A stretch of DNA of 64,000 bases. Origin: Planctomycetota bacterium (lineage in GTDB: Bacteria > Planctomycetota > Planctomycetia > Gemmatales > Gemmataceae). This document shows, piece by piece, positions 10,302 to 58,014 of this stretch. Numbering within the stretch: position 1 is the first letter of the stretch; each line of letters starts with the position of its first letter. A model generated the notes under the pieces. That model was not told the origin of the DNA and searched no databases. It saw only the letters and a program-made list of their open reading frames with translations. Where the stretch lies: positions 21,665-85,664 of the forward strand of contig JACPZP010000125.1 of NCBI GenBank assembly GCA_016195405.1. Reading direction: 5' to 3'. The translations under genes and the position numbers were made by a program.

Positions 10302-11468
10302 TTACTGCTTTGCACGCGCGAGGTCGCCCGGGCCGGGGGAGAGGGGAACCACATGTTCAAGGGCAAATTCGTGCTTCACGCCGTCGAGGTCACGGCCGGC
10401 TTTTAGGTTGCGGACGCGCGTCTTGAGAGTCTTCAACGCGCCTCGGTCCTTTTCGATGACGGCGGCGGACCGGCCCATCTTGACGGCCACCGCCAGTGTC
10501 GTGCCGCTGCCCGCGTAGGGATCGAGCACGGAATCGCCGGGACGGGTGCATATCTCCATCAGAAAGCGTAAAATCGCCTCCGGCTTCTTCGAATCCTTGA
10601 AGTCGCAACCCGGGCCGCCCTCTCTATATATGGTGGGAACGACTTCGGTGAAGTCGAGATCATTCGTGGGCAGCAACGGACGCCCGGCGGCAAGCTGCGA
10701 CTGAAAATAGACGCCGCTACGGCGTTTGCCGTTGCCGGTTTGGAACCAGCGATAGCCGAGGCCGTCGCGCTCCAATCCGGGCACCTGAATCAACAAGTTC
10801 TCGCCCAGATGCTTGAGATGCGTCTCGTACCACTCTCCCGACCAGTTCGCCGTCGCCAGCTTGCCCGCAATGACGTACCGGCGCAGAGCATCCGGGGAGT
10901 ATCCGGTTTCGGCGATCTCGTACTGATGAGGCAGATAGACTTGGACGTTCTTGCCGCGGACCACCATCGTCTGGTCTGGACCGCCCAGCAGATGGATCGA
11001 ATGAATGAACTTATCGGGCCGCGAAGGCGTTTGCGTTGTGATGAAGCGCGCCTGCGGGTTCTTCCTGTAGATAAGCAGGTATTCATAGAGATCGTGAAAC
11101 GTGGCATTGATCATCAGTTGCCGTTGCCGATGGCGAATCTTGACGGGAAAGAGGCCGACGAAACATTTCTCGCCCAGCGCGTCGTCCAGAACTTGCTTGA
11201 GAGTGAATAGCTCGGTTTGATTGATCGACGCGGCGAGAAAGCCGGCCGGGCCAAGCAAATCGGCCGATCCTTGCACGACTTCGCGAACTTCCTTGCGCCA
11301 ATCCTTGTTGCAGGCGTCGCGAAAGAGCTTCCGCGCGCCGCGCAGCCGGCCCGTGTTGTAGGGAGGATCGAGGTAGACCAGTTGGCAACGCCATTCGGCG
11401 GTTCTGAGAAAGGCGAGGGCCCGCGTGTTCTCCTGAGGCATGAGGAGATAGCGCGGGCCCTTATGCAT
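10302..11468 (-). CDS. DNA amino-methyltransferase (N6-adenine or N4-cytosine), beta-class motif order, orphan
   Basis: 388 aa. Catalytic motif IV LDPPYN near the N-terminus and SAM-binding motif I VLDPYAGSGTT near the C-terminus. No adjacent endonuclease. Confidence 0.85.
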   Translation of the reverse strand: MHKGPRYLLMPQENTRALAFLRTAEWRCQLVYLDPPYNTGRLRGARKLFRDACNKDWRKEVREVVQGSADLLGPAGFLAASINQTELFTLKQVLDDALGEKCFVGLFPVKIRHRQRQLMINATFHDLYEYLLIYRKNPQARFITTQTPSRPDKFIHSIHLLGGPDQTMVVRGKNVQVYLPHQYEIAETGYSPDALRRYVIAGKLATANWSGEWYETHLKHLGENLLIQVPGLERDGLGYRWFQTGNGKRRSGVYFQSQLAAGRPLLPTNDLDFTEVVPTIYREGGPGCDFKDSKKPEAILRFLMEICTRPGDSVLDPYAGSGTTLAVAVKMGRSAAVIEKDRGALKTLKTRVRNLKAGRDLDGVKHEFALEHVVPLSPGPGDLARAKQ

Positions 11469-15352: not shown

Positions 15353-15994
15353 CTATTGCACTTTCATGATCGAATCTCGTCCGCCCTTCAGCACCGCCCG
15401 CACTGGACTCGCATCGAATCCAGCCAACTTCAACGGCAGCGCGATCAACTCGTAGGTTCCCTCCGGTACGCCATCAAGCACCAATCCTTCGAGAATCGCC
15501 ATGTCGTGCCGCAGGAACATTTGGTGCGCCGGCAGATCTTTTGAATCGAACAAGTCCACGCTCGGCGTGTCGATGCCAATCAATACTACCGCTTGTTGAT
15601 GGAGCATGTCCACCAGGACGGGGCTGAGCGCGGCGAAGTCCGTGTTGAAATGATCGGGATTCGGAAACGTCCCCGTCCAGAGCAGCACTCGCGACGCGGT
15701 GATCGGCGAGGTAAGCATCTCGGCCGTGATGCACGCCCCGCGCGGAACCTTGACGCGCATCACCTGACATGGGCCAATGTAATAGTCGAGGCGGCGCTGA
15801 TCAATCGACTGGCCGTCGGCGGCATAATGGCTCGGGGCGTCGGCGTGAGCGCCCAGGTGTACCGTGGCGCGGAGGGCCGACAGGGTGATGCTGTCGCCGC
15901 GCTTCATGTCGAGCAGCACTTCGCGCCGCGGCGGCACGTCGCCGGGCCAGACTGCGAGCCGTTCCGTTATGGCTGGTGAAATATCGTAGATCAT
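15353..15994 (-). CDS. kynB: Kynurenine formamidase (arylformamidase, cyclase family). Start taken at the internal Met MIYDISPAI, preceded by GGAGGAA
   Basis: HxGxHxD-like metal site (VHLGAHADAPSH) and the cyclase-family fold pattern. ORF track gives 15353..16117. Confidence 0.8.
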   Translation of the reverse strand: MIYDISPAITERLAVWPGDVPPRREVLLDMKRGDSITLSALRATVHLGAHADAPSHYAADGQSIDQRRLDYYIGPCQVMRVKVPRGACITAEMLTSPITASRVLLWTGTFPNPDHFNTDFAALSPVLVDMLHQQAVVLIGIDTPSVDLFDSKDLPAHQMFLRHDMAILEGLVLDGVPEGTYELIALPLKLAGFDASPVRAVLKGGRDSIMKVQ

Positions 15995-16188
15995 CCGGTT
16001 CCTCCAGGCCAAAAATGGCTTGCAGGGCTGTCCGCGGGGGGTCGCAATGCACGCAATAATGCCATTAGTTCCCCATTCCCCTGAACGTGATTTTAGTGGT
16101 CGTCCGCCCGGTAACAAACGGCTTGTTGCCAGAACCCTTTTTCTGGCTTATGGTGACGAAGGACCTCTCTAACTCACGAGGTGACGCC

Positions 16189-16692
16189 ATGACGCTCCAA
16201 GCCCCGTTCAACCTCCAAACGTGGATCAACGAGAATCGGAACCTCTTGAAGCCGCCGGTGGGCAACCACATGCTCTTCAATCAGAACTTCATGGTTATGG
16301 TCGTGGGCGGGCCCAACCAGCGCACCGATTTTCACGTCAATCCGACCGAAGAGTTGTTTTACCAGCTCGAGGGCGACATCGTCTTGCGGGTCATGGAAAA
16401 GGGGCAGCCACGCGACATTCCCATCAAGCAGGGCGACATGTTCCTATTGCCGCCGGGCATCCCGCACTCACCGCAGCGGCCCGCCAACACCGTCGGCCTG
16501 GTCATCGAGCGCAAGCGTCCCGACAACGCCGACGACCACATGCGCTGGTTTTGCAAGAAATGCGGCGCCGTCATCCACGACGCCGAGTTTCACCTTGTGG
16601 ACCTGGGCAAGCAACTCAAACCGATCATCGAAGAATACAAGAGCAAGAAAGAGTTGCAAACGTGCAACGCGTGCGGGACCGTCAATGAATGA
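16189..16692 (+). CDS. nbaC: 3-hydroxyanthranilate 3,4-dioxygenase (cupin)
   Basis: MTLQAPFNLQTWINENRNLLKPPVGN, the FHVNPTEE...GDMFLLPPGIPHSPQR cupin metal site, and the C-terminal CxxC...CxxC rubredoxin-like site. Confidence 0.9.
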   Translation: MTLQAPFNLQTWINENRNLLKPPVGNHMLFNQNFMVMVVGGPNQRTDFHVNPTEELFYQLEGDIVLRVMEKGQPRDIPIKQGDMFLLPPGIPHSPQRPANTVGLVIERKRPDNADDHMRWFCKKCGAVIHDAEFHLVDLGKQLKPIIEEYKSKKELQTCNACGTVNE

Positions 16693-16695
16693 AAC

Positions 16696-17706
16696 ATGAA
16701 GATCGACCTCCACACCCACATCCTGCCCAAGACTTGGCCCGACCTGCGCCAGCGTTACGGCTACGGCGGCTTCGTGCAGCTTGAGCATCACGGCCCCGGG
16801 TGTGCCCGGATGACAATCGACGGCAAGTCGTTCCGCGAAATTGAGGACAACTGCTGGGACCCCAAGCGCCGCATTGCGGATTGTGAAAGCCACGGCGTGG
16901 ATGTGCAGGTGTTGTCCACCGTGCCCGTCATGTTCAGTTATTGGGCCAAGCCGCAAGACACGCTCGATCTCGCCCGGCTCCTCAATGATCATTTGGCTGA
17001 ACTGGTGGCCTCGCACCCACGCCGATTCATCGGGCTCGGTACGCTGCCGATGCAAGACGCCGCCTTGGCAATCCGCGAGCTGGAGCGGTGTGTCAACGAT
17101 CTCGGTTTCCCCGGCGTGCAGATCGGCAGCCACGTCAACGGCTGGAACCTCAATCATCCAATCCTGTTCCCGATTTTTCAGCGAGCCGAGAAGCTTGGCG
17201 CTTGCATCTTCGTGCACCCGTGGGACATGCTGGCGAAAGAGCGGATGGAGCAATACTGGCTGCGCTGGCTGGTCGGCATGCCCGCGGAAACGTGTCTGGC
17301 GATCTGCTCGGTCATTTTCGGAGGCGTCTTGGAACGGCTGCCGAAGCTCCGCATCTGCTTCGCGCACGGCGGCGGCAGCTTCCCCGGCACCGTCGGCCGC
17401 ATCGCCCACGGCTTCGAAAGCCGACCCGATCTTTGCGCCGTCGACAACGCCGTCGATCCGCGCGCCTATCTGGGCAAGTTCTATGTCGATTCATTGGTGC
17501 ACGACGCCGCGGCCCTACGGTATTTGCTGGAATTGATGGGCGTCGATCGCGTGGCGCTAGGGAGCGACTATCCGTTTCCACTGGGAGAAGCCGTGCCGGG
17601 GCGGTTGATTGATTCTATGGCGGAACTTTCCGCGGACGTTCGCAAGAAACTAATGGCGGAAAACGCACTAGATTTCTTAGGATTGAAGCAGGAAGGGTTT
17701 TGTTGA
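16696..17706 (+). CDS. 2-amino-3-carboxymuconate-6-semialdehyde decarboxylase (amidohydrolase_2)
   Basis: [11 protein letters not shown]...[11 protein letters not shown]...[14 protein letters not shown] family. 3 bp downstream of the HAAO gene. Confidence 0.9.
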
Positions 17707-17722
17707 GGCAGAGCATCTTGCC

Positions 17723-19000
17723 ATGACAGATGTCTTTCAGCCCGGAGAAGATTTCGCCCGGCAGCTCGATGCCGAAGATCTGCTTCGCCATTTCCGCGAC
17801 CGGTTCCACTTCCCGCGCCGGCCGAATGGCTCACCTTATCATTACTTTTGCGGCCATTCGCTCGGGCTACAACCCAAGGCGGTGCGCCACCTGATCGAAC
17901 AGGAGCTGGACGACTGGGCAAGGCTCGGCGTCGAAGGGCACTTCGAAGGAACGACTCCGTGGTACAGCTACCACGAGATCTTTCGCGATAATGGAGCGAG
18001 GCTAGTCGGCGCCCAGCCCGGCGAGGTTGTGATGATGAACAGCCTCACCGTGAATTTGCACCTGATGTTGGCTACGTTCTACCGACCGACTGGCAAGCGC
18101 CGCAAGATTCTAGTCGACAGCCCGACCTTCCCGTCTGATCTTTTCGCCGTGCAGACACATTTACGCCATCGAGGGGCCGATCCGGCGAACGATCTCCTCG
18201 TCGCCCGGCCGCGGTCCGGCGAGCACCTATTGCGCATGGAAGACGTCGAAACGCTGCTTAATACGCATGGCCATGAGATTGCCGTCGTACTTTGGAACGG
18301 CGTCAACTTTTACACGGGCCAACTTTTCGACTTGCAGCTGCTGAGCGAGATCGGCCATGCGCACGGCTGCGTGGTTGGGCTCGAATTGGCGCATGGAGCA
18401 GGCAACGTCGTTCTGCAACTCCATGATTGGCAGGTCGATTTCGCCGTTTGGTGCAACTACAAGTATCTGAATTCAGGACCTGGCGCGGTCGCCGCTTGCT
18501 TCGTGCATGAAAAACATGGCCGAAACCTCGATTTGCCGCGCCTCGCCGGCTGGTGGGGGACCGATCCGCATACGCGCTTTCAAATGGAAGACGGCGACTT
18601 CAAGGCGCAACCCGGCGCCGAAGGCTGGCAAGTGAGCAACCCGCCGATCTTCTCCTTGGCGCCTGTGCGGGCATCGCTGGCGCTTTTTGACGCAGCGGGA
18701 ATGCCCGACCTCCGCGCCAAATCCGAAAAACTGACCGGTTACCTCCACTACCTGCTCGAAGGGCAGGCAGCCAAGGCGTTCGAGATTATCTCGCCGGCCC
18801 GTCTCGAAGAACGCGGCTGTCAGCTATCACTTTTGGTGCATCGCGAGCCGCGCAAGCTCTTTGACGCCTTGCACGGTGCGGGAATGCTGTGCGATTTCCG
18901 GGCGCCCAACGTGATTCGCGTCGCGCCCGTGCCGCTCTACAATTCCTTTGAGGATGTGTGGATGTTTGCCAACACCGTTAAGACGCTGTCGATGAGTTGA
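17723..19000 (+). CDS. kynU: Kynureninase (PLP-dependent)
   Basis: 425 aa. YHYFCGHSLGLQPK...NSLTVNLH...KYLNSGPGAV (PLP lysine region). Confidence 0.9.
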   Translation: MTDVFQPGEDFARQLDAEDLLRHFRDRFHFPRRPNGSPYHYFCGHSLGLQPKAVRHLIEQELDDWARLGVEGHFEGTTPWYSYHEIFRDNGARLVGAQPGEVVMMNSLTVNLHLMLATFYRPTGKRRKILVDSPTFPSDLFAVQTHLRHRGADPANDLLVARPRSGEHLLRMEDVETLLNTHGHEIAVVLWNGVNFYTGQLFDLQLLSEIGHAHGCVVGLELAHGAGNVVLQLHDWQVDFAVWCNYKYLNSGPGAVAACFVHEKHGRNLDLPRLAGWWGTDPHTRFQMEDGDFKAQPGAEGWQVSNPPIFSLAPVRASLALFDAAGMPDLRAKSEKLTGYLHYLLEGQAAKAFEIISPARLEERGCQLSLLVHREPRKLFDALHGAGMLCDFRAPNVIRVAPVPLYNSFEDVWMFANTVKTLSMS

Positions 19001-20364
19001 TTGTGTCCATTTCAGACGCCCCTCAATTCACGATCGTCGGCTCGGGCCTCGCCGGCGCGCTCTTGGCGTGCTACCTCGGCAAGGCGGGTAAACGCGTCGA
19101 CCTCTATGAGAAGCGTTCCGATCCACGCCGTCATGGGGCGGAGAGCGGTCGTTCGATCAACTTGGCCCTTTCCGTTCGCGGCATCAAGGCGCTAGAGGAA
19201 GTTGGGCTGGCGGACCGCGTGCTTCAGAACGCCATTCCGATGCGCGGGCGAATAATTCATTCGCCGACCGGACAACAGACCTTTCAGCGGTACGGCAAAG
19301 ACGAAAGCCAGGCGATCAACTCGGTCTCACGGGCGGGGCTCAATCTCATCTTGATCGAAGCGGCGGCGCGATATCCCAACGTGCGGATGTACTTCGAATC
19401 TCGCTGCACGGGGGTCGATCTCAAAGACATGGCGGTCGAGGTGGTGGAGGAAGTTGGAGTCTGCAATCAGGAGGCTGACACCCCCCGTTCGCCGCGACAT
19501 ATACAATTCGAGACCCTTGTCGGGGCGGATGGGGCGTATTCAGCGGTGCGGGCGGCATTGGAGAAGCAGGAACGCTTCAACTTTCAGCAGGATTATCTCT
19601 CGCACGGTTACAAGGAATTGACGATTCTGCCGGGACAGGGCGGGACGTTTTGTATGGAGAAGAACGCCCTGCACATTTGGCCGCGACATTCATTCATGAT
19701 GATCGCGCTGCCCAACATCGACGGCTCTTTCACGTGTACCCTTTTCTGGGCGTGCGAAGGGCCCAACAGCTTCGCGGCCATTCAGAGCGAAGCGGACCTG
19801 CTTCGATTCTTCAAGGAACAATTTGCCGATGCGATGCCGTTGTTGCCCAACCTCGCAGAAGAATATTTCCACAATCCAGTCGGGCCGCTGGTAACGATGC
19901 GCTGCTCGCCGTGGCACTTCGAGGATCGGATAGTGCTACTGGGAGACGCGGCTCACGCGGTCGTGCCGTTCTTGGGTCAAGGGATGAACGCCGCCTTCGA
20001 GGATTGCACGGTGCTGGCGCGGTGTTTGGAAAAACAACAGACTGAGGCGGCATTCCAAGACTACGAGCGACTGCGCAAGGAACATGCCGACGCGCTCGCA
20101 GACATGGCGATCGATAACTTTCTCGAGATGCGTGACCGCGTGGCTTCGCGGTGGTTTCTCATTCGCAAGAAGGCGTCGCTCCTGCTCTATAAGCTGTTTC
20201 CCGTCTGGTACGTGCCGCTCTACAACTTGATTCAGTTCACGACCACACCGTATGCCGACGCGCGTGGCCGTGCACGGAAGCAAGATCGCATGGTTTGGCG
20301 CGTCGGAATTGGTGTTCTGCTCGTCCTCACCGGCCTCTTCGTTTGGCTATCTGCATTTCGATAG
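18997..20364 (+). CDS. kmo: Kynurenine 3-monooxygenase (FAD-dependent), C-terminal membrane anchor
   Basis: 455 aa. FAD GxGxxG (IVGSGLAGALLA), the DG/GD motifs of class A flavin monooxygenases, hydrophobic C-terminus. Start overlaps the kynU stop. Confidence 0.85.
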   Translation: MIVSISDAPQFTIVGSGLAGALLACYLGKAGKRVDLYEKRSDPRRHGAESGRSINLALSVRGIKALEEVGLADRVLQNAIPMRGRIIHSPTGQQTFQRYGKDESQAINSVSRAGLNLILIEAAARYPNVRMYFESRCTGVDLKDMAVEVVEEVGVCNQEADTPRSPRHIQFETLVGADGAYSAVRAALEKQERFNFQQDYLSHGYKELTILPGQGGTFCMEKNALHIWPRHSFMMIALPNIDGSFTCTLFWACEGPNSFAAIQSEADLLRFFKEQFADAMPLLPNLAEEYFHNPVGPLVTMRCSPWHFEDRIVLLGDAAHAVVPFLGQGMNAAFEDCTVLARCLEKQQTEAAFQDYERLRKEHADALADMAIDNFLEMRDRVASRWFLIRKKASLLLYKLFPVWYVPLYNLIQFTTTPYADARGRARKQDRMVWRVGIGVLLVLTGLFVWLSAFR

Positions 20365-50809: not shown

Positions 50810-51658
50810 TTGGAGGTTGCAATGGTTACTACATTGGATGAAAGCCAAGACGTCATGCAGGTCTGTCGCAATGGCCACGTCATCACGGACCGTCTGCGCG
50901 GCGATCCCGACAGCGGGCGATCTCACTGCGACCGCTGCGGCGCTGTGACGTTCTACCACTGCCCGACATGCGGCGGCGAGTTCCCCGGCGCGCTGGATGT
51001 GACCGGCTTGGCTCCCATAGGCGGCAGACCGGCGCCGCACTACTGCTTAATGTGCGGCGCCGCGTTGCCTTGGGTGCGAAGGGCCCGACCTGCACCCGAG
51101 CCGGTCGCTGCACTCGAAGGCCTCCTGCGCCGGCTGCCGCTTGCTATCCGCCAACTTCGCTGGCGCCAGGGAGACCGGCCCCCCTACCGCGTGGAGGACG
51201 AGCGCGACCTCGAAGATCTGCTCCGAGCCTTGCTGACATTGCCCTTCGATGATGTACGCCTTGAAGGCCGCACACCCGCGTATAGTCCACGAAATCGAAC
51301 CGACTTGCTGTTGTCCAGAGGAAAGATCGCGCTCACCGTGAAGTTCGCGCGGCCCGACCTGCGCGAGCCGCAACTGGCGGAGCAACTAATGCAAGACGCC
51401 CTGTACTACCGCGAGCGCGGCGGCTGCCGGACGCTCGTGGGCTACGTCTACGATCCGGAAGGAACCCTTCGTGACATCCGCCGGGCCGAGAGCATCGGCG
51501 CCGGATGGGCGGAGGGACTGGAGGTGCGCTGCATCGTGAGCGGATTAGTGGATGCCGAAGGTGGGAATTTCACGACTCCGCTTGAGATCGGAACTTTCTT
51601 GCCTCAGGTTGAGCCGATTAGGCCGTTTGCTAACGGCGGTGCAGGCTCGCTTCGATGA
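50810..51658 (+). CDS. Hypothetical protein with an N-terminal 4x Cys-pair zinc ribbon and a C-terminal restriction-endonuclease-like region
   Basis: 282 aa. CRNGH...CDRC...CPTC...CLMC, then YRVEDERDLEDLL...RTDLLL...IALTVKF (E / D / xK-like spacing). Confidence 0.45.
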   Translation: MEVAMVTTLDESQDVMQVCRNGHVITDRLRGDPDSGRSHCDRCGAVTFYHCPTCGGEFPGALDVTGLAPIGGRPAPHYCLMCGAALPWVRRARPAPEPVAALEGLLRRLPLAIRQLRWRQGDRPPYRVEDERDLEDLLRALLTLPFDDVRLEGRTPAYSPRNRTDLLLSRGKIALTVKFARPDLREPQLAEQLMQDALYYRERGGCRTLVGYVYDPEGTLRDIRRAESIGAGWAEGLEVRCIVSGLVDAEGGNFTTPLEIGTFLPQVEPIRPFANGGAGSLR

Positions 51659-51892
51659 CTTCGACTGCCGATTTGGCAACAAAAACATCAAGCAGGCGGT
51701 TTATTGACGGCCAGCCTGCGAGCGGGCGAAGTCGCGGCCGGCGACGAGGTTTGTCGCGATCGAGTACGTATCGGGTTTGAAACGTTGGCGGCGCGGATTT
51801 CAATTGTTATTCGGCGCCGGCTACCGGGAACAGGGGAATGTGGATAAAATGACCATTTGTGCTTGTGTGTCAGGCGACATTTGGGGAAGGCG

Positions 51893-52147
51893 ACGATGAT
51901 TTCCAGCCATACGAGTTCTGTCGCTGAACGTGCGAAAGCGATCTACAGCCGACGGCTTCAAGCTGAATTGGAAGCGACGCATCCCGACGACTATGTGGCA
52001 ATTGAGCCGGAGTCGGACGAGCACTTTCTCGCCAATTCCTTCGCAGCAGCGGTTGCAGCCGCGCGTGCCGCTCATCCCGACTGCATCTCCTTCGTGATCC
52101 GCATCGGCCACCCAGCCGCGATCCATTTGGGAGGGTTGACCATTTGA
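51893..52147 (+). CDS. Hypothetical small protein (start taken at MISSHTS)
   Basis: ~84 aa. YVAIEPESDEHFLANSF...FVIRIG pattern, reminiscent of small TA-associated families (unverified). Confidence 0.3.
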   Translation, partial: TMISSHTSSVAERAKAIYSRRLQAELEATHPDDYVAIEPESDEHFLANSFAAAVAAARAAHPDCISFVIRIGHPAAIHLGGLTI

Positions 52148-52387
52148 ACGGTCGCGTCCGACATCGACTTTGCGCTAGGCGTTGCCGGTGGGGCGCACCT
52201 CGCGGAAGTCGTCGCTGACTGGACGGCTCGGATTTACCGCGAGTCGAGCGCCGTCCACCACGACACCCTGCAGGTCGACTCGAACGCCTGGCCGGGTCTC
52301 TGAAGGAACTGGCAGGATAGGGGTACAGCGGAATGACCAAAAACAAGCTGCTTCAGCTGCTGGGATGACCGTCCTCCTGCTCCTCCC

Positions 52388-52702
52388 ATGGGTAATTGGC
52401 CGGCATTGAGCGCATTTATCCTTGGAGAAGTTGGCCGATTTAACACGCCCAATGCGGCCAACGTTGCCAATATGATCAATCGTTGTCTTGGACTTGCTGA
52501 TGTAAGAATCTCATGGGGATGGAAGAACTGCACAGCGGCCCAAGCGGAGACTCTGCTTAACGAAGCGCTCGACCATCGTCATGAAATCGCCCACGGAGTC
52601 AATCCGCGTCCTGTCATCACAACGCGTACTCAAGATGGCTTCCTGGCTTCATACGGAGGCTTGCGATTTGCACCGATCAGTCCGTTCGTCAGCATTTGGT
52701 AG
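52388..52702 (+). CDS. Hypothetical small protein with an Rx4HG (HEPN-like) motif
   Basis: 104 aa. DHRHEIAHG fits Rx4-6H. Weak assignment. Confidence 0.25.
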   Translation: MGNWPALSAFILGEVGRFNTPNAANVANMINRCLGLADVRISWGWKNCTAAQAETLLNEALDHRHEIAHGVNPRPVITTRTQDGFLASYGGLRFAPISPFVSIW

Positions 52703-53052
52703 CGGTCAACGGGTTGCCAAATCCCTGGCCACCCTGACTGGCGGCGCTCGCCGAAGGGTCGGTGCGCTCGCTCGACGCCGGCGAACTCCAGCAAGCCTTC
52801 GGCGTGGTGATGCACGCGCTGATCGCAGAGTCGGTCGTGCCGACGTCGCTCAGGTAGAGGAGGCTGTAGCCGGAGAAGACTTTCGCCTGGTTGGTAACCT
52901 GGTAGCCCACAGGTTGACCGTGACCTCCGGGAGGACGGCAAAGCCCAAGTGGCCGGCAGTCGCTCGTTTGTGAGCATCCTTTTTGGGATAAAACACCTCT
53001 AAGTCCGGCAATCCACGGGTTCCGCCGGCGAAATACTCGGAAGGAGAAGACA

Positions 53053-53199
53053 ATGACGAACATGCGACCGACCTTGAATTTTCCCACGCCGAAGCCAACC
53101 TGGATGCCGCGGCGTGCCAGGCCCATCAGTACGCTCCTGGACTTGCTAATCGCCATTGGAGCGGTTGCGGTCATGGGGGCCGTGCTGTTCTTGCTCTGA
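53053..53199 (+). CDS. Candidate 48-aa tail-anchored membrane peptide (not in the supplied ORF track, below its length cutoff)
   Basis: Strong SD (AAGGAG) 6 nt before the ATG at 53053. MTNMRPTLNFPTPKPTWMPRRARPISTLLDLLIAIGAVAVMGAVLFLL, basic N-part plus one C-terminal TM helix. ~75 nt from the tRNA 3' end. Confidence 0.3.
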   Translation: MTNMRPTLNFPTPKPTWMPRRARPISTLLDLLIAIGAVAVMGAVLFLL

Positions 53200-53273
53200 T
53201 AATTCGGGCTTGACCGCGCCGCCTATTGGATGTGACGCCAGCCGAGTCCATTGCTGGTATGCAGGTGTTGAAA

Positions 53274-53345
53274 AGCCGCCTCAGGGATTTGAACCCTGGA
53301 CCCCCGCTTTACGAAAGCGGTGCTCTACCGCTGAGCTAAGGCGGC
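53274..53345 (-). tRNA. tRNA-Thr (anticodon CGU)
   Basis: Reverse complement reads GCCGCCTTAGCTCAGCGGTAGAGCACCGCTTTCGTAAAGCGGGGGTCCAGGGTTCAAATCCCTGAGGCGGCT: 7-bp acceptor stem, D-loop AGCTCAGCGGTAGAGC, anticodon loop TTCGTAA, T-arm GGTTCAAATCC. Confidence 0.85.
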
Positions 53346-53398
53346 GCATCGGCGCTGACCGAATTTTATTGCGGCCCGCCGTAGCTGTCAATTCGGGC
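53306..53398. repeat. Direct repeat copy 1 (tRNA-Thr 5' half plus ~55 bp of upstream flank), left boundary of islet
   Basis: 93 bp matching 55696..55788 with 4 mismatches. Confidence 0.85.
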
Positions 53399-53583
53399 TC
53401 GAACGAGATCAGAAACGGTTGGAACCTCGCGGGAGAAAGGGAGGACGGCGCACGTATAGTCCTTCGGCGCCGGTTCCTAAACGAACGGGAAGAGGGCAAA
53501 GACAAGAGGGATGCAAGGGAACATACCGGGATTGTGACCGAGCAAGGTGCCGCGGGCAACAATAAACGCCGCGGTCATTTATA

Positions 53584-54534
53584 ATGAAAGGATCGCGGGC
53601 AATTTCCCCATTCCGGGAGACTAACCCAATGATCACAACGCCCACCGTATTCATCTTGGGCGCCGGCGCGAGCATTCCCTATGAGTTTCCGTCCGGACAG
53701 GCACTTGCGGATTCCATCTGTGAACCCGGAGAGAATGTAGGTTGGTTGGTGGCTTATGGATTCGAAGAGAGCCACGCCAAGAGATTCGTCAAGGAGCTGA
53801 GACGCGCGCAAAGCGAATCAATTGATTCTTTTCTGGAAGACCGGCCAGAGTTCAAAGAAATTGGCAAAACTGCCATCGCCATAAGGCTAATTAAGTATGA
53901 AAACCAGGAACAGTTTTTCATCGTCAACAAGCGGAATTGGTACACCCTTTTGCTCAAACGGATGTATAGTTCCCTCGACGAGTTCCCCAACAACACAGTA
54001 AGTATCGTTACGTTCAACTACGATCGGTCACTTGAGCACTTCATCTTCGAGGCTCTGTGCGCTCGATCCGGGAAGCCACCTAGTGAAGTCGCCGCTGCAT
54101 TGCAGAAGATACCGTTCATTCATGTTCACGGACAGATGGGATTCTTGCCCTGGCAAACTTCAAGCGACAATGACAAAAGGCCATACGCAACTACCGAATC
54201 GGAAGTCGCAGTGCGAACGGCCGCAAAAGGCATCAAGATTGTTTCCGAAGGAAATGAAGAAAGCGAAGAGTTCGTCGCCGCGCGAAGGTCCATCAACGAC
54301 GCTCGACGCCTTCACTTTCTTGGCTTTGTGTATCATGAAACCAATATGCGCCGCTTGGGTGCTTCGTTCGAGCTGTTCGACAAAAAAGAAGTCTCAGGAA
54401 CTTGTTTCGGGATGACCGACGCCGAGCAAGATCTTGTGCTACGGCGCGTTAACTACAGTCTGAAACATTTCGGGCCAGCGAACCAAGGCAATCATGAGTT
54501 TCTGCGCAACTCAAAGCTGTTCCTCAGTGACTAA
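53584..54534 (+). CDS. SIR2-like (SIR2_2 / sirtuin-fold, putative NAD+-consuming) protein (alternative start MITTPTVF at 53629 after GGGAGA)
   Basis: 316 aa. FILGAGASIPYEFPSGQ (compare sirtuin GAGIStesGIPdFRS), TFNYDRSLEH (SIR2_2 TTNYD motif) and HVHGQ (catalytic His) in the correct order with ~36-aa N-to-H spacing. Visibly AT-richer than its surroundings. Confidence 0.65.
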   Translation: MKGSRAISPFRETNPMITTPTVFILGAGASIPYEFPSGQALADSICEPGENVGWLVAYGFEESHAKRFVKELRRAQSESIDSFLEDRPEFKEIGKTAIAIRLIKYENQEQFFIVNKRNWYTLLLKRMYSSLDEFPNNTVSIVTFNYDRSLEHFIFEALCARSGKPPSEVAAALQKIPFIHVHGQMGFLPWQTSSDNDKRPYATTESEVAVRTAAKGIKIVSEGNEESEEFVAARRSINDARRLHFLGFVYHETNMRRLGASFELFDKKEVSGTCFGMTDAEQDLVLRRVNYSLKHFGPANQGNHEFLRNSKLFLSD

Positions 54535-54708
54535 ACCTAAACTCACTTCACCGGCCGGCCACGCCACGCTTGGCCTTGTTTTTGAGCCGCGGCTTTTGTT
54601 GAAATGTGGTGCAGCCCACGCCGAGGGCATCGGCCAGCGCGATGGGCGACCGGAGGGTGATTCAAGGAATAATGGGCAGAATTTGCAAGCTTCCGACTGG
54701 CCACATGC

Positions 54709-55512
54709 TCATCGAGCTTCCGCCAGCCCGGCTCTTCTTGCAGCGGCCGGAAGGCCAGCGCGTGCGCTCGGTCCAATTCTGGGATCATTGGCAAGATCGA
54801 TCGCTAGGTTGTGAAGATCTGGAAAAAGAGACGCACGACGAATGCCCAATATCCGAAGCTCTTCTGAAAATGTTGCCCTCGCTTGCTCTGGAATCACAAG
54901 CTTCACCAAGTATTTGTCCGCGTTCCCACGATCCTCCAAGGGTGTGTTGTCTCCGTGAATTGTGTATGCACCTTGTTGCACCGTCATTCGAATATCCGAT
55001 TCCTCTCCCAAAGCTGCAAGTGCCGTGTCTGTCCTTGGGCCTCGATCAAACGCAGCTTTCACGAGTGGGTCCGCTTGCGGTCCACTCATGACAGCAATTC
55101 CGTCGAAGTGATCTTTATTTAGGTTAACAGGTGAGAGAACCCAAATAGCCGCAGGGCCTGGTTTGGGATCGAACGAAGCCGCAAAGTAAAGGGCGGCTTG
55201 AAGTGACGCAGTCCAATCCAACAAGCGAGTCGGCAGGCCGTAATGCTGCATGAGGCATAACCAGCCCCCAAGGTCGTCTTGAGCCGGCAATCGCCCATGC
55301 CTCATCGGAGCTTCCAGCTTAAAACGGTGGACAAGAAACGTTTCATCCATCGCATCAAACTTGCGATGCACGGACGGCACAAGTGTCCAACTATCACACG
55401 AATGGCCTCTGTACCACTCAGTCGTCAAGCCGACATTCGGGCAGACTTTTCGAATACCGCTTAAGAGCGATGCTGTATCGACAACTTCAATTTGGTTAAT
55501 TTGTCTGTTCAA
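54709..55512 (-). CDS. FRG-domain protein
   Basis: 267 aa. WYRGHSCDSWTLVPSVHRK matches the F/Y-R-G...W.L.PS..R signature that names the FRG domain. TTG start 7 nt after GAGGTGG. Convergent with the SIR2-like gene. Confidence 0.55.
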   Translation of the reverse strand: MNRQINQIEVVDTASLLSGIRKVCPNVGLTTEWYRGHSCDSWTLVPSVHRKFDAMDETFLVHRFKLEAPMRHGRLPAQDDLGGWLCLMQHYGLPTRLLDWTASLQAALYFAASFDPKPGPAAIWVLSPVNLNKDHFDGIAVMSGPQADPLVKAAFDRGPRTDTALAALGEESDIRMTVQQGAYTIHGDNTPLEDRGNADKYLVKLVIPEQARATFSEELRILGIRRASLFPDLHNLAIDLANDPRIGPSARAGLPAAARRAGLAEAR

Positions 55513-55695
55513 AGTGCCACCTCTACGGATAATTCGAAAACGGAGTGAAGAAATTTCGACCGGGTGTCATGACACCCGCAAGCAAGGTTTTTCACTGGTT
55601 TTTGCGGTCTTCGAAGGGCAATGCAAAAGTGGCGTTTTCCCAGCAAATAATCAGCTTTCCGCGTGTGTTACAGGACCGGCGTGATCGGCCTTATT

Positions 55696-55788
55696 GCTTT
55701 ACGAAAGCGGTGCTCTACCGCTGAGCTAAGGCGGCGCGTCCGCGCTGACCGAATTTTATTGCGACCCGCCGTAGCTGTCAATTCGGGG
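55696..55788. repeat. Direct repeat copy 2 (partial tRNA-Thr 5' half, nt 1-40 of the tRNA, plus upstream flank), right boundary of islet
   Basis: Identity with 53306..53398 starts exactly within the anticodon stem (GCTTTACGAAAGCGG...). 4 mismatches over 93 bp. Confidence 0.85.
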
Positions 55789-55878
55789 TCGTCTCCAGTG
55801 GATGGAGCGGATTGAAAAGAATGAGGCTGGCCGTTGAGGGGAAAACGGCCAGCCTCGTGGGTTCCTTGCGGAACGTCG

Positions 55879-57606
55879 TCATTTCACTTCGTCGAGCTTC
55901 TTGCCGCCGCCGAGTTGCAATTGGCTCGCGTCTTGCCCTGCATGCATCACGCTGGGACGGAAGCTGGAGGCGCCAAGATCGTTGGCGCTGCGCGAGCGGC
56001 GGTGGCCGATGACGCCGAGGAAGTTCTCGGCCGAGATGATGAACATGCCGCGCTCGATGGCGTCTTTGCGCATGGCCCGCATGGTCTCGTTAATGGCTTT
56101 GGCGCGGTCGGGCGTGTCGTCCCTCGCCTCTTTCGCCTCGGCTTCCTTCGCTTCGCCTTGCTTCGCTTCGCCGTCTTTGCCCTCGGCGTCCTTGTCCTTC
56201 TGCTTGGGCTTGAAGGCGTCGCCGTTCTTGGGCTCGGGAAGCAGGTCACCCAAGATCAGGTAGCGGGTGCGATAGTTGAGTTCGCCCTTAATCGTGTTGT
56301 CGGTCAGGTCGAGATAAGCGTCGACGCGGACGCCGTTGTTTTGCAGGATTTGCATGAACGCGTTCAGATTCCGCGTCTGCTCGGCCGGGGTGTCCGCGGG
56401 CTGGCCGTTCGGGTTGACGTTGCCGACCACGGCGACGTGCGAGCCCCAAAACATGTTGAAGAGGAGATCGCCTTCCTTGAGCGCGTTTTCCGATTCGCGC
56501 GCCAGCCGGCCCTTGGAAGCGTCGGCCAGCACGATTTCGCGGCCCTCGAGATCATAGAGGGAAGTAATGCGGCAGACCGAGGCGTTGTCGAGCACGCGAA
56601 TGACTTCACAGGTTCCCTTCATTTGGCCGGTCGCCTGGCGCTTGCCGTTGTCCGCGAAAATGTTGAAACTCAGCCCAGGCTTGGCGCCTTGCGCGGCGCC
56701 GATGTTGACGAAGAGCTGGCCGTTCTCGATGTCGACGCGCGTGACTTTGCCGAGCGGATTGTCCCACAACGTCTTGCCGGGGGACATGTCAAGCATGAGG
56801 GCGTGCACGTCGCCGGCCAACTTGACGGGAGCGTTGGGGTCTGCCTTTTGCACCTCAAATGCGACGATTTTCTTGTTCAGGTTGCGAATGACTGCCTCAT
56901 ACTTGGCCTTGTCGTTCTCAAGCTGGTCGCTCTGCTGTTTCTTCTCGTCATTGAGATCCTGGTTGCGTTTCATCTGTTTCTGCATTTCTTCGGTCTGCGC
57001 TTGAGCGGCCTTGAGCGTCTTGTTATTGCCGTCGGTGATAGCGACGTTAGCATCCTTCCACGACTTGTTAGTGGCGGCCTCCAGCTTTTCATAGCGCTCG
57101 TTGAGGGCCTTGTAGTCGGCTTGAGCGGTGTTGACTTGGGCACGGGCGTCTTCAAGGCTCTTGTTCAGCGTGGTAAAGGAGTCCTTGAATGTCTCCTTGT
57201 ACTTTTTTCCTTCCTTGTCGTAGTTCAGGCTCTTGCGCATCTCGGCGACCATCTTCTTGGCGGCCTCGCGCACTTTGGCGTCCTGCTTTCCGAATTCGCC
57301 GCCATCGCTGAGAAGATCGTCGATGGCAAGCTTGTAAAGATTCATTTCATCCGGATCCAACGCGTCGCCGTAGGCGAGCCGGGCTTCGCGGGCCAAGGTC
57401 AAGGCGTATTGCTCGCCGGTGTTGTTGGACTTGGCGAGTTGCGATTTTGCCTTGGCCTCTTCGCGCAGCTTCTCTTGTCCGGAGTAGCCGAAGTAGCCCC
57501 AAACGCCGAGGCCGATGCTCAAGAGGACGAAGAACGACAAGAAAATGACGAGGATCGTGCTCGGATTGGAGCCGTCGCGTTTGCCTGGTTTTCTCAGACC
57601 TGCCAT
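55879..57606 (-). CDS. Membrane-anchored coiled-coil protein with Lys/Glu-rich tail, hypothetical
   Basis: 575 aa. N-terminal TM (ILVIFLSFFVLLSIGLGVWGYF), long heptad coiled coil, C-terminal globular region. The overlapping + strand 664-aa ORF is a low-complexity antisense shadow. Confidence 0.55.
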   Translation of the reverse strand: MAGLRKPGKRDGSNPSTILVIFLSFFVLLSIGLGVWGYFGYSGQEKLREEAKAKSQLAKSNNTGEQYALTLAREARLAYGDALDPDEMNLYKLAIDDLLSDGGEFGKQDAKVREAAKKMVAEMRKSLNYDKEGKKYKETFKDSFTTLNKSLEDARAQVNTAQADYKALNERYEKLEAATNKSWKDANVAITDGNNKTLKAAQAQTEEMQKQMKRNQDLNDEKKQQSDQLENDKAKYEAVIRNLNKKIVAFEVQKADPNAPVKLAGDVHALMLDMSPGKTLWDNPLGKVTRVDIENGQLFVNIGAAQGAKPGLSFNIFADNGKRQATGQMKGTCEVIRVLDNASVCRITSLYDLEGREIVLADASKGRLARESENALKEGDLLFNMFWGSHVAVVGNVNPNGQPADTPAEQTRNLNAFMQILQNNGVRVDAYLDLTDNTIKGELNYRTRYLILGDLLPEPKNGDAFKPKQKDKDAEGKDGEAKQGEAKEAEAKEARDDTPDRAKAINETMRAMRKDAIERGMFIISAENFLGVIGHRRSRSANDLGASSFRPSVMHAGQDASQLQLGGGKKLDEVK

Positions 57607-58014
57607 GGGACCACCTCAGGGGGTGAAATGCAAAAGAAGATCGGGAACTCCGCCGCGCCAAAGCCCGGCAAAGCGTCTTCTATCAAGTCTAAAGGCATTG
57701 AGATTCTTGTCAAACCATTTGGCCTGGGAAAACTTTGCGGGCGCATTTTGCGAGCCGATCGCGACGGTTGTGCCAAGGAATGGCTCTGGATGGATTGTGG
57801 CGCTCGCCCGAACTTGACAGGTTGTTAAGTGCCTTTAGAATACGAGAAGCACCCAGATACCATTAGCGCGGCGTTTGTTCCTGGTCTTTCCGCTGGGACC
57901 CTGGCCTTTCACGGAGCGCGTCCCAGCCGTCCGCGCCCCTAACCTTCCGCGGTTGTTCCCGTCCTTCGTCCTCGGCGTTCGCAAGATTCGAGTTCCGCAG
58001 GTTCGACACGGTCC

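What the first reader, a model, noticed from the sequence alone, without database searches (positions are those of the whole stretch)
53306..55788. Unusual integration geometry: duplicated tRNA 5' half plus upstream flank, and no integrase in the islet
The intact tRNA-Thr (minus strand, 53274..53345) lies at the left boundary. The right boundary repeats tRNA nucleotides 1-40 plus ~55 bp of upstream flank, at 96% identity, rather than the usual 3' end of the tRNA. The islet has no integrase or recombinase. This suggests either integration by an element whose att site overlaps the tRNA 5' half and promoter followed by loss of the integrase, or a non-canonical mobilisation mechanism. The 4 mismatches between the repeats argue the event is not very recent.
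Basis: seen in the sequence. Interest (0 to 1): 0.55.

Follow-up and report, generated by a model that had tools for sequence, protein, structure and literature searches.

The report
Integrase-less defence islet at tRNA-Thr 5′ side
A 2.3-kb piece of foreign DNA carrying two anti-phage-type genes sits just upstream of a tRNA-Thr gene in a Gemmataceae genome, flanked by two copies of the tRNA's promoter and first 40 bases; this is a rare but already known integration layout, and the element no longer encodes its own integrase.

Summary
An intact tRNA-Thr(CGT) lies at 53274-53345 (minus). A 96-nt direct repeat (R1 53306-53401, R2 55696-55791, 92/96 identical) covers tRNA bases 1-40 plus 56 nt upstream. 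That upstream part is the tRNA's complete sigma-70-type promoter (TTGACA-17-TAAAAT) and leader. The repeat ends in the anticodon stem.

The 2,294 bp between the copies is the lowest-GC stretch of the window (0.52 versus 0.60). It holds two intact genes, a SIR2-fold defence-type protein and an FRG-domain protein (PADLOC candidate PDC-S15). No recombinase was found in the islet or in the large ORFs scanned across the 64-kb window.

Two related metagenomic contigs (L088, about 85% nucleotide identity; L089, more distant) keep the flanking synteny. Both have one promoter, one tRNA and no islet, so they are empty sites.

Best reading: a decayed or non-autonomous integrative element. It entered by tyrosine-integrase-type recombination at the anticodon loop in the minority "5′-fragment" orientation (159 of 3,919 Islander islands) and brought its own promoter plus 5′ half to rebuild the tRNA gene. 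Integrase involvement is inferred, not shown.

This is a new member of a known kind, of modest interest.

The parts
53274..53345 (-). Intact tRNA-Thr(CGT), the regenerated target gene
   Evidence: ARAGORN. Rfam tRNA model, 70.6 bits, full length. Identical over 72/72 nt to the tRNA of L089 and 70/72 to that of L088.
53306..53401 (-). R1, the tRNA-proximal repeat copy. It covers tRNA nt 1-40, a 17-nt leader and the promoter, and ends 10 nt upstream of the -35 box. This copy now drives the tRNA.
   Evidence: It is 88/93 identical to the orthologous empty-site sequence of L088.
53363..53391 (-). Sigma-70-type promoter TTGACA-17-TAAAAT inside R1
   Evidence: 11 of 12 consensus matches. The same boxes are present in L088. 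TTGACA-17-TAAGAT is present in L089.
53402..55695 (.). Islet body, 2,294 bp of foreign DNA that is absent from the related contigs
   Evidence: GC is 0.521, the minimum of all 2,294-bp windows (mean 0.600, sd 0.027). The L088 alignment jumps from window 55696 to 53398.
53629..54534 (+). SIR2-fold, defence-type protein of 301 aa. An alternative upstream start at 53584 gives 316 aa.
   Evidence: PADLOC SIR2 model, E=9e-9. 21 of 39 homologues hit Pfam SIR2_2. The AlphaFold model has pLDDT 93.6. Foldseek matches SIR2-HerA, KomC, DSR2 and ThsA at E from 4e-5. The GAGxS loop, N130 and H165 are conserved. Homologues cover it at full length.
54709..55512 (-). FRG-domain protein of 267 aa (PADLOC candidate PDC-S15). 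It is on the same strand as the tRNA and downstream of the R2 promoter.
   Evidence: Pfam FRG, E=1.5e-19, 71 bits. PADLOC PDC-S15, E=1.7e-37. Homologues of 250-260 aa cover 90-95% of it.
55561..55578 (.). Perfect 18-nt palindrome CGGGTGTCATGACACCCG in the FRG 5' leader. It may be an operator or a hairpin.
   Evidence: Read from the sequence. It forms a hairpin in the fold. Its function is untested.
55696..55791 (-). R2, the distal repeat copy. It is the displaced tRNA 5' fragment (55696-55735) with its leader and promoter.
   Evidence: It is 85/92 identical to L088 and carries the 3 polarisable derived changes.
55753..55781 (-). Second copy of the TTGACA-17-TAAAAT promoter, inside R2, pointing into the islet towards FRG
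   Evidence: It is the only consensus-like promoter upstream of FRG on its strand, and no terminator-like site lies between it and FRG.
55823..55856 (-). Intrinsic terminator of the conserved upstream 575-aa gene. It marks native chromosome to the right of R2.
   Evidence: It is conserved in L088.
55879..57606 (-). Conserved flanking gene of 575 aa, used to find the empty sites
   Evidence: 84% identical to P0242 in L088 and 54% to P0244 in L089.

Best explanation
The islet is the remnant, or a non-autonomous derivative, of an integrative genetic element.

The element inserted into the tRNA-Thr(CGT) gene by conservative site-specific recombination of the tyrosine-integrase type. Strand exchange was in or next to the anticodon loop, in the minority orientation in which the element lands on the 5' side of the gene.

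That orientation cuts the tRNA 3' half off from its promoter. The element's attP therefore carries a host-like copy of everything needed to rebuild an expressed gene: from 10 nt upstream of the -35 box, through the leader, to tRNA base 40.

After integration, one copy (R1) joined to the native 3' half is the working tRNA gene. The displaced native promoter plus 5' fragment (R2) is left at the far end, where it now points into the islet and probably transcribes the FRG gene.

The cargo is two defence-type genes, a SIR2-fold protein and an FRG/PDC-S15 protein. The integrase has either been deleted or was never on this unit. In the second case the islet would be a CIME-like hitchhiker needing an integrase supplied from elsewhere.

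Shown: the insertion, the duplication, its boundaries, the foreign composition, the absence of a recombinase, and the empty sites in relatives.

Inferred: the recombinase type, the crossover position, which copy came in with the element, and promoter read-through into FRG.
For: 1. Empty sites. L088 is 85% identical to the window over about 7.5 kb. Its alignment runs through R2 to window 55696 and resumes at 53398-53250. It has one promoter, one tRNA and no islet. L089 shows the same synteny and a tRNA identical over 72/72 nt, again with no islet.
2. Classical tDNA-island signature. There is an intact tDNA plus a cognate end fragment in direct orientation, with the 5' fragment upstream, as Islander's configuration filter requires (PMC4383910).
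3. Both edges of the repeat fall on functional landmarks. The inner edge is 3 nt into the 3' arm of the anticodon stem, at the anticodon-loop sublocation used by about half of Islander islands (2,083 of 3,919). The outer edge is 10 nt upstream of an 11/12-match -35/-10 promoter.
4. The tRNA part of the repeat is 40/40 identical and all 4 mismatches lie in the leader and promoter flank, outside both hexamers. This is the pattern expected of two functional tRNA-gene copies that diverged in separate lineages.
5. The islet is the lowest-GC segment of the window.
6. Relatives of both cargo genes were seen next to tyrosine recombinases elsewhere: an FRG homologue in L082 and a SIR2-like homologue on a JGI contig about 4 kb from a Phage_integrase gene.
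7. An independent assembly reproduces both repeat variants and two junctions.
Against: - No integrase, integrase pseudogene or arm-type repeat could be found, so recombinase involvement is purely inferential.
- No related element with an integrase and the same attP was found in viral contigs, phages or plasmids, nor in the two metagenome contigs that matched the tRNA-promoter pattern.
- Polarity is awkward. Under a strict anticodon-loop crossover, R2 should be the native copy. Yet R1 is the one that agrees with the L088 empty site at the 3 polarisable mismatch positions. This needs either post-integration decay of the now-useless R2 or an ancestral-like donor copy. Both are plausible, and a 3:0 or 4:0 split is not statistically decisive.
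- The order of segments across the 42-nt exact block rests on the MAG assembly alone.
Confidence: 0.62

Rival explanations
1. It is the same insertion, but R2 rather than R1 is the copy that came in with the foreign DNA. A circular DNA that had picked up promoter plus tRNA 5' half from a previous closely related host, for example by imprecise excision, entered in one of two ways. Either RecA-dependent single-crossover (Campbell-type) recombination through the 96-bp homology, or a site-specific crossover at the upstream edge of the repeat. No anticodon-loop integrase is involved.
For: R1 matches the orthologous L088 sequence better than R2 does (88/93 versus 85/92), and all 3 polarisable differences are on R2. 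No integrase or arm sites are present. A 96-bp homology is enough for homologous recombination (general knowledge).
Against: It does not explain why the identity block stops inside the anticodon stem-loop, a canonical integrase target, or why it begins just upstream of the -35 box. Capturing the segment still requires an earlier integration at this same locus. The 3:0 polarity is also expected if R2 simply decayed after losing its function.
Confidence: 0.15
2. There is no integrative element. An ancestral local tandem duplication of promoter plus tRNA-Thr was followed by illegitimate insertion or replacement that destroyed the 3' part of the upstream copy and left foreign DNA between the copies.
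For: It would produce a 5' fragment with its own promoter upstream of an intact gene. The truncated copy (R2) is the more diverged one.
Against: Both relatives have a single copy at this locus, so two independent events are needed in one lineage where a single integration explains everything. The foreign DNA fills exactly the interval between the repeat copies. The fragment of 40 tRNA bases shows no decay at all.
Confidence: 0.08
3. It is a transposition-like insertion that generated a 96-bp target-site duplication.
For: There are direct repeats of host sequence on both sides of foreign DNA, and no integrase.
Against: No transposase and no terminal inverted repeats were found. I know of no transposon family that makes target duplications of this length (general knowledge). 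The duplicated segment coincides with functional landmarks rather than an arbitrary stagger.
Confidence: 0.03
4. It is an assembly artefact. The true state would be an empty chromosomal site plus a separate 2.39-kb circular or tandem molecule, wrongly threaded through the shared 42-nt block.
For: The Logan k=31 contigs break at the shared block, so they do not confirm the order of segments across it.
Against: The exact shared block is only 42 nt, far shorter than reads and than the larger k values used by metagenome assemblers (inference). The 85.7-kb MAG contig traverses both copies. Even in this scenario the object is the same integrative element, merely excised.
Confidence: 0.05

Closest known systems
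tDNA genomic islands with a displaced 5' tDNA fragment (Islander database class; 159 of 3,919 islands, Hudson et al. 2015, PMC4383910)
   Same: An intact tRNA gene at one end, a cognate 5' end-fragment in direct orientation upstream, foreign DNA between them, and a fragment endpoint at the anticodon stem-loop sublocation.
   Different: Islander islands contain an integrase by definition. This one has none and, at 2.39 kb, is only just above Islander's 2-kb size floor. Islander's integrase filter would reject it.
pTN3-like integrative elements of Thermococcales (attB is the 5' half of a tRNA gene; PMC8371274)
   Same: The element integrates on the 5' side, so the recombinant tRNA gene must be expressed from an element-borne promoter.
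   Different: Those are archaeal and integrase-encoding, and the tRNA is expressed from the integrase promoter. Here the host is bacterial (Gemmataceae), and the element-side copy is a near-identical duplicate of the tRNA's own sigma-70-type promoter.
CIMEs, cis-mobilizable elements (e.g. Streptococcus thermophilus; definitions in PMC6323972 and PMC5704250)
   Same: Flanked by attL- and attR-like repeats and lacking integration and transfer genes, so it looks like a decayed integrative element retaining its att sites.
   Different: CIMEs are defined relative to ICE/IME ancestors and usually sit at the 3' ends of target genes. No ICE/IME ancestry, accretion partner or mobilisation is shown here.
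Klebsiella pneumoniae islands arg2A-VII and others with clade I.d integrases, which integrate upstream of arg2 (bioRxiv 10.1101/2020.11.02.365908)
   Same: A bacterial example of tDNA islands lying upstream of the target tRNA gene rather than downstream.
   Different: The reported sublocation is the D-loop and an integrase is present. Here the repeat ends in the anticodon stem and no integrase is present.

Membership tests
tDNA-integrated genomic island (Islander signature) | Intact tRNA or tmRNA gene at one end | tested here: met
   tRNA-Thr(CGT) at 53274-53345. It scores 70.6 bits over the full Rfam model.
tDNA-integrated genomic island (Islander signature) | Cognate tDNA end-fragment at the other end, in the same orientation and in the right configuration (a 5' fragment upstream of the gene) | tested here: met
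   tRNA nt 1-40 is repeated at 55696-55735 on the same strand, upstream of the gene.
tDNA-integrated genomic island (Islander signature) | Tyrosine integrase gene inside the island | tested here: not met
   No Phage_integrase or recombinase hit in the two genes or in eight small ORFs of the islet, nor in the large ORFs scanned across the window.
tDNA-integrated genomic island (Islander signature) | Length of 2-200 kb | tested here: met
   The start-to-start spacing of the repeats is 2,390 bp.
tDNA-integrated genomic island (Islander signature) | Fragment endpoint at a recognised crossover sublocation (anticodon loop, T-loop or 3' junction) | tested here: met
   Identity ends after tRNA base 40, which is 3 nt past the 7-nt anticodon loop. 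The actual cleavage points were not determined.
Integrative genetic element in general | Uninterrupted (empty) site in related genomes | tested here: met
   L088 and L089 keep the flanking synteny and have a single promoter and tRNA with no islet.
Integrative genetic element in general | Excision or circular form, or movement between sites | not testable with these tools
   This needs read-level data from SRR12113414, or experiments.
CIME (cis-mobilizable element) | Retains attL and attR but lacks integration and transfer genes | tested here: met
   96-nt direct repeats are present and no recombinase, relaxase or T4SS domains were found. That the repeats still work as att sites is not shown.
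CIME (cis-mobilizable element) | Derived from an ICE or IME and mobilisable by a related element's integrase | not testable with these tools
   No related full-length element was found. The rest of the genome is not available.
SIR2-family defence NADase (cargo gene 53629-54534) | SIR2 (Rossmann-like) fold with a conserved NAD-binding loop and a catalytic Asn/His pair | tested here: met
   Model pLDDT is 93.6. Foldseek gives E=4e-5 to SIR2-HerA, KomC, DSR2 and ThsA. G11-A12-G13-x-S15 and N130 are invariant and H165 is nearly invariant in 39 homologues. Assigning N130 and H165 as the catalytic pair is by analogy only, and NADase activity and defence function are untested.
FRG-domain protein / PADLOC PDC-S15 (cargo gene 54709-55512) | Match to Pfam FRG above the gathering score, and to the PDC-S15 models | tested here: met
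   FRG scores 71.1 bits against a cut-off of 25. PDC-S15 gives E=1.7e-37. PDC-S15 is only a candidate defence family.

The most novel reading that the evidence does not exclude
The islet is not a dead remnant. It would be a working, non-autonomous mini-island that carries only att sequences plus two defence genes and is moved in and out of tRNA-Thr(CGT) by an integrase encoded elsewhere in the genome or on a helper element. Its 5'-side geometry would be adaptive: it brings a replacement promoter for the tRNA and uses the displaced native tRNA promoter to drive high, constitutive expression of its FRG defence gene.
Probability: 0.18. Interest if true: 0.45.

Novelty: new member of a known kind. 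Interest (0 to 1): 0.3.

Why it matters
This is a clean, well-bounded example of the rare 5'-side mode of tRNA-gene integration in a little-studied phylum (Planctomycetota, Gemmataceae). The repeat shows exactly what such an element must carry: the promoter, the leader and the 5' half up to the anticodon loop.

It also illustrates how small defence-gene cargos can persist at tRNA hot spots after the recombination machinery is gone. Integrase-anchored island finders such as Islander and TIGER would not call it, because both require an integrase. If the displaced tRNA promoter really drives the FRG gene, that would be a simple route by which 5'-side integration gives a cargo gene strong expression.

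None of this changes current understanding of integrative elements.

Tried and rejected
Searches and tests that led nowhere:
- Scanning genome contigs with the 575-aa flank protein gave no confirmed relative.
- A PolA-based scan gave 80 loci. The four closest (58-68% identity, Gemmataceae and Planctomycetia MAGs) either lack tRNA-Thr near polA or end too early, so they gave no empty site.
- Exact-protein look-ups of the two islet proteins and the left-flank REase-like protein were not on record.
- The metagenome scan for the tRNA 5' end plus the -10 box found only two contigs of a more distant organism. They have a normal single tRNA and no synteny.
- The tRNA 5' 40-mer is absent from viral contigs. 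The islet has no DNA match in phage or plasmid collections.
- FRG and the SIR2-like gene were tested as a conserved two-gene system. The neighbours of FRG homologue P0004 are unrelated to the SIR2-like protein. SIR2-like homologue P0127 has a Trypsin_2-like partner and no FRG neighbour. They look like independent cargo.
- A search for arm-type integrase binding repeats in the islet's non-coding ends found nothing above shuffled controls.
- The 21-nt similarity D3 (53196-53216 versus 53385-53405) does not extend and is at chance level.
- There is no tRNA 3' fragment anywhere in the window, so there is no evidence for a classical 3'-side island boundary on the left.
- Rfam finds no other RNA family in 50-58 kb, and R2 is not detected as a tRNA-like gene.
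- The R2-to-FRG leader has no unusually stable fold (z = -1.3).
- Williams 2002 (PMC100330) could not be read. Its content is cited only through papers that quote it.
Full report
**Observation**

The window contains a single tRNA gene, tRNA-Thr(CGT), on the minus strand at 53274-53345. Rfam scores it at 70.6 bits over the full model.

A 96-nt direct repeat has copies at 53306-53401 (R1) and 55696-55791 (R2), 92/96 identical. The 40-mer of the tRNA 5' part occurs exactly twice in the window and the 3' part once, with none expected by chance. A sensitive word-7 search finds no further copy. The four mismatches (53348, 53351, 53374, 53398) all lie in the 56-nt upstream flank.

**Anatomy of the repeat**

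Read in the tRNA's orientation, the repeat has four parts in order:
- 10 nt of upstream sequence;
- an 11/12-match sigma-70-type promoter, TTGACA-17 nt-TAAAAT, present in both copies and the only two promoter-like sites in 53-56 kb;
- a 17-nt leader;
- tRNA bases 1-40.

It ends after the third base of the 3' arm of the anticodon stem (...CCGCT TTCGTAA AGC|). So the repeat runs from just upstream of the promoter to the anticodon stem-loop. That is exactly the part an element would need to carry to rebuild an expressed tRNA gene after landing on its 5' side. None of the four mismatches touches either promoter hexamer.

**The islet**

The 2,294 bp between the copies (53402-55695) has a GC content of 0.521. 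This is the minimum of all 2,294-bp windows in the 64-kb window (mean 0.600, sd 0.027). It holds two intact, convergent genes.

Gene 53629-54534 (+) has no Pfam hit itself, but several lines place it in the SIR2 family:
- It matches PADLOC SIR2 models at E=9e-9.
- 21 of 39 homologues hit Pfam SIR2_2.
- Its family profile weakly hits the KomC SIR2 NADase.
- A confident model (pLDDT 93.6) matches the defence sirtuins SIR2-HerA, KomC, DSR2 and ThsA (E from 4e-5).
- The GAGxS loop, N130 and H165 are conserved.

Gene 54709-55512 (-) is an FRG-domain protein (Pfam 71 bits) that matches the PADLOC candidate family PDC-S15 at E=1.7e-37.

The two are not a conserved pair. FRG lies on the tRNA strand, 241 nt downstream of the R2 promoter, with no terminator-like site between them. 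The displaced promoter is therefore its most likely promoter, though this is an inference.

**No recombinase**

Neither islet gene nor the small ORFs in the islet's non-coding ends hit an integrase, recombinase or transposase family. None of the large ORFs scanned across the whole window does either. No arm-type repeat motif exceeds shuffled controls.

**Is it real?**

The window comes from an 85.7-kb contig of an NCBI MAG labelled Planctomycetes bacterium (HY040_21340-21350). By PolA similarity it belongs to the Gemmataceae.

An independent Logan assembly of SRR12113414 gives two relevant contigs. L081 equals window 59477-55708 and carries the R2 variants. L087 equals window 53318-54807 and carries the R1 variants. 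Both break at the same repeat offset, 30 nt before the first mismatch, as expected for a k=31 graph. Both variants and two junctions are thus reproduced. The order of segments across the 42-nt exact block still rests on the MAG assembly.

**Empty sites**

Homologues of the 575-aa gene that abuts R2 led to two syntenic contigs.

L088 (flank protein 84% identical; about 85% nucleotide identity over about 7.5 kb) carries rho-coaE-polA-79aa-574aa, then the terminator, TTGACA-17-TAAAAT and a complete tRNA-Thr(CGT), with nothing in between. Its alignment to the window runs through R2 to 55696 and resumes at 53398-53250.

L089 (54% identical flank protein) shows the same order, a tRNA identical to the window's over 72/72 nt and a TTGACA-17-TAAGAT promoter.

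The islet plus one repeat copy is therefore an insertion specific to the window's lineage. The tRNA's 3' side differs in all three genomes, so this tRNA sits at the edge of a variable region.

**Polarity**

L088 agrees with R1 at the three mismatch positions that can be polarised. The fourth falls at an ambiguous 1-nt gap. Overall R1 is 88/93 and R2 is 85/92 identical to L088.

With a strict anticodon-loop crossover, R2 should be the native copy. The derived changes on R2 would then mean one of two things: decay of a promoter that no longer serves the tRNA, or an element copy that happened to be ancestral-like. Alternatively, R2 is the imported copy and the crossover lay at the upstream edge or was homologous. 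A 3:0 or 4:0 split cannot decide between these.

**Mechanism**

My best explanation (confidence about 0.6) is a tyrosine-integrase-type integration at the anticodon loop in the 5'-fragment orientation, with an attP that carries promoter, leader and 5' half. The integrase was later lost, or was always supplied in trans, which would make the unit CIME-like.

The insertion, the duplication, its boundaries, the foreign composition and the lack of a recombinase are shown. The recombinase type, the crossover position and read-through into FRG are inferred.

Anecdotally, relatives of both cargo genes occur next to tyrosine recombinases elsewhere.

Rivals, with my confidence in each:
- Homologous or upstream-edge recombination with R2 as the imported copy (0.15).
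- Tandem tRNA duplication followed by truncation (0.08). This is disfavoured by the single-copy state in both relatives.
- A 96-bp target duplication (0.03).
- Mis-threading in assembly (0.05).

**Comparison with what is known**

The layout is uncommon but described:
- Islander records 159 islands with a 5' tDNA fragment against 3,760 with a 3' fragment, and its configuration filter explicitly allows a 5' fragment upstream of the gene (PMC4383910).
- pTN3-like archaeal integrases use the 5' half of tRNA genes, with the tRNA expressed from an element promoter, and this is said to be seldom met in bacteria (PMC8371274).
- Klebsiella islands that integrate upstream of arg2 have been reported.
- Elements that keep attL and attR but have lost their integration genes are known as CIMEs (PMC6323972, PMC5704250).

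The islet meets the island signature except for the integrase, so I do not file it as a full Islander-type island. It works like one that has decayed.

**Verdict**

This is a new member of a known kind, with interest about 0.3.

Noticed in passing
window 50810-53250: The tRNA's 3' side carries a patch of defence-like or degraded genes. These are a DUF2321 + REase_DpnII-MboI-like protein (50810-51658, also hitting the PADLOC Aga_Helical-REase model), a 96-aa ORF (51857-52147) and a C-terminal HEPN RiboL-PSP fragment (52388-52702). Homology to L088 ends at 53250, and no tRNA 3' fragment marks a boundary. This may be an older, decayed island on the canonical side.
   Followed up: partly
L088 7697-8076; L089 8885-10986: The region downstream of tRNA-Thr(CGT) differs in each relative. 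L088 has the end of a gene I read as Calx-beta-like; this was not domain-scanned. L089 has an HNH protein and a DDE_3 (IS630-like) transposase. The tRNA marks a boundary between the conserved polA side and a variable side.
   Followed up: partly
window 55561-55578: A perfect 18-nt palindrome, CGGGTGTCATGACACCCG, lies about 50 nt upstream of the FRG start codon, between the displaced tRNA promoter and FRG. It could be an operator or an attenuating hairpin.
   Followed up: no
window 53550, 53569, 53593: The motif CCGCGG(G/T)CA occurs three times at roughly 20-nt spacing just upstream of the SIR2-like gene start. This is not above what shuffled sequence gives.
   Followed up: partly
L082 7082-8918: The closest FRG homologue (P0002, 56% identity) lies immediately downstream of a 282-aa tyrosine recombinase (Phage_int_SAM_4 + Phage_integrase) at the end of a farmland-soil contig. 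No tRNA was detected there.
   Followed up: partly
JGI sample 3300047160, 131-kb contig (no DNA available): A 47%-identical homologue of the SIR2-like protein overlaps a Trypsin_2-like gene in an apparent operon, about 4 kb from a 425-aa Phage_integrase gene. A resolvase lies about 3 kb downstream. This looks like an integrase-bearing island with related cargo.
   Followed up: no
window 53274-53345 versus L088 7625-7696: The two tRNA-Thr(CGT) genes differ only by a compensatory change in one anticodon-stem pair (C27:G41 in the window, A27:T41 in L088). The more distant L089 has the window's version.
   Followed up: yes
window 15353-20364: An apparent kynurenine-pathway cluster: a putative cyclase (possibly kynurenine formamidase, my inference), an Amidohydro_2 protein, a kynureninase-like protein and an FAD-dependent monooxygenase.
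   Followed up: no
window 10302-11468: A stand-alone N6_N4 DNA methylase gene sits next to triosephosphate isomerase. No adjacent restriction gene was identified.
   Followed up: no
window 55834-57828 (+): A 664-aa ORF lies antisense to the conserved 575-aa gene. It is most likely a high-GC shadow ORF, not a gene.
   Followed up: no
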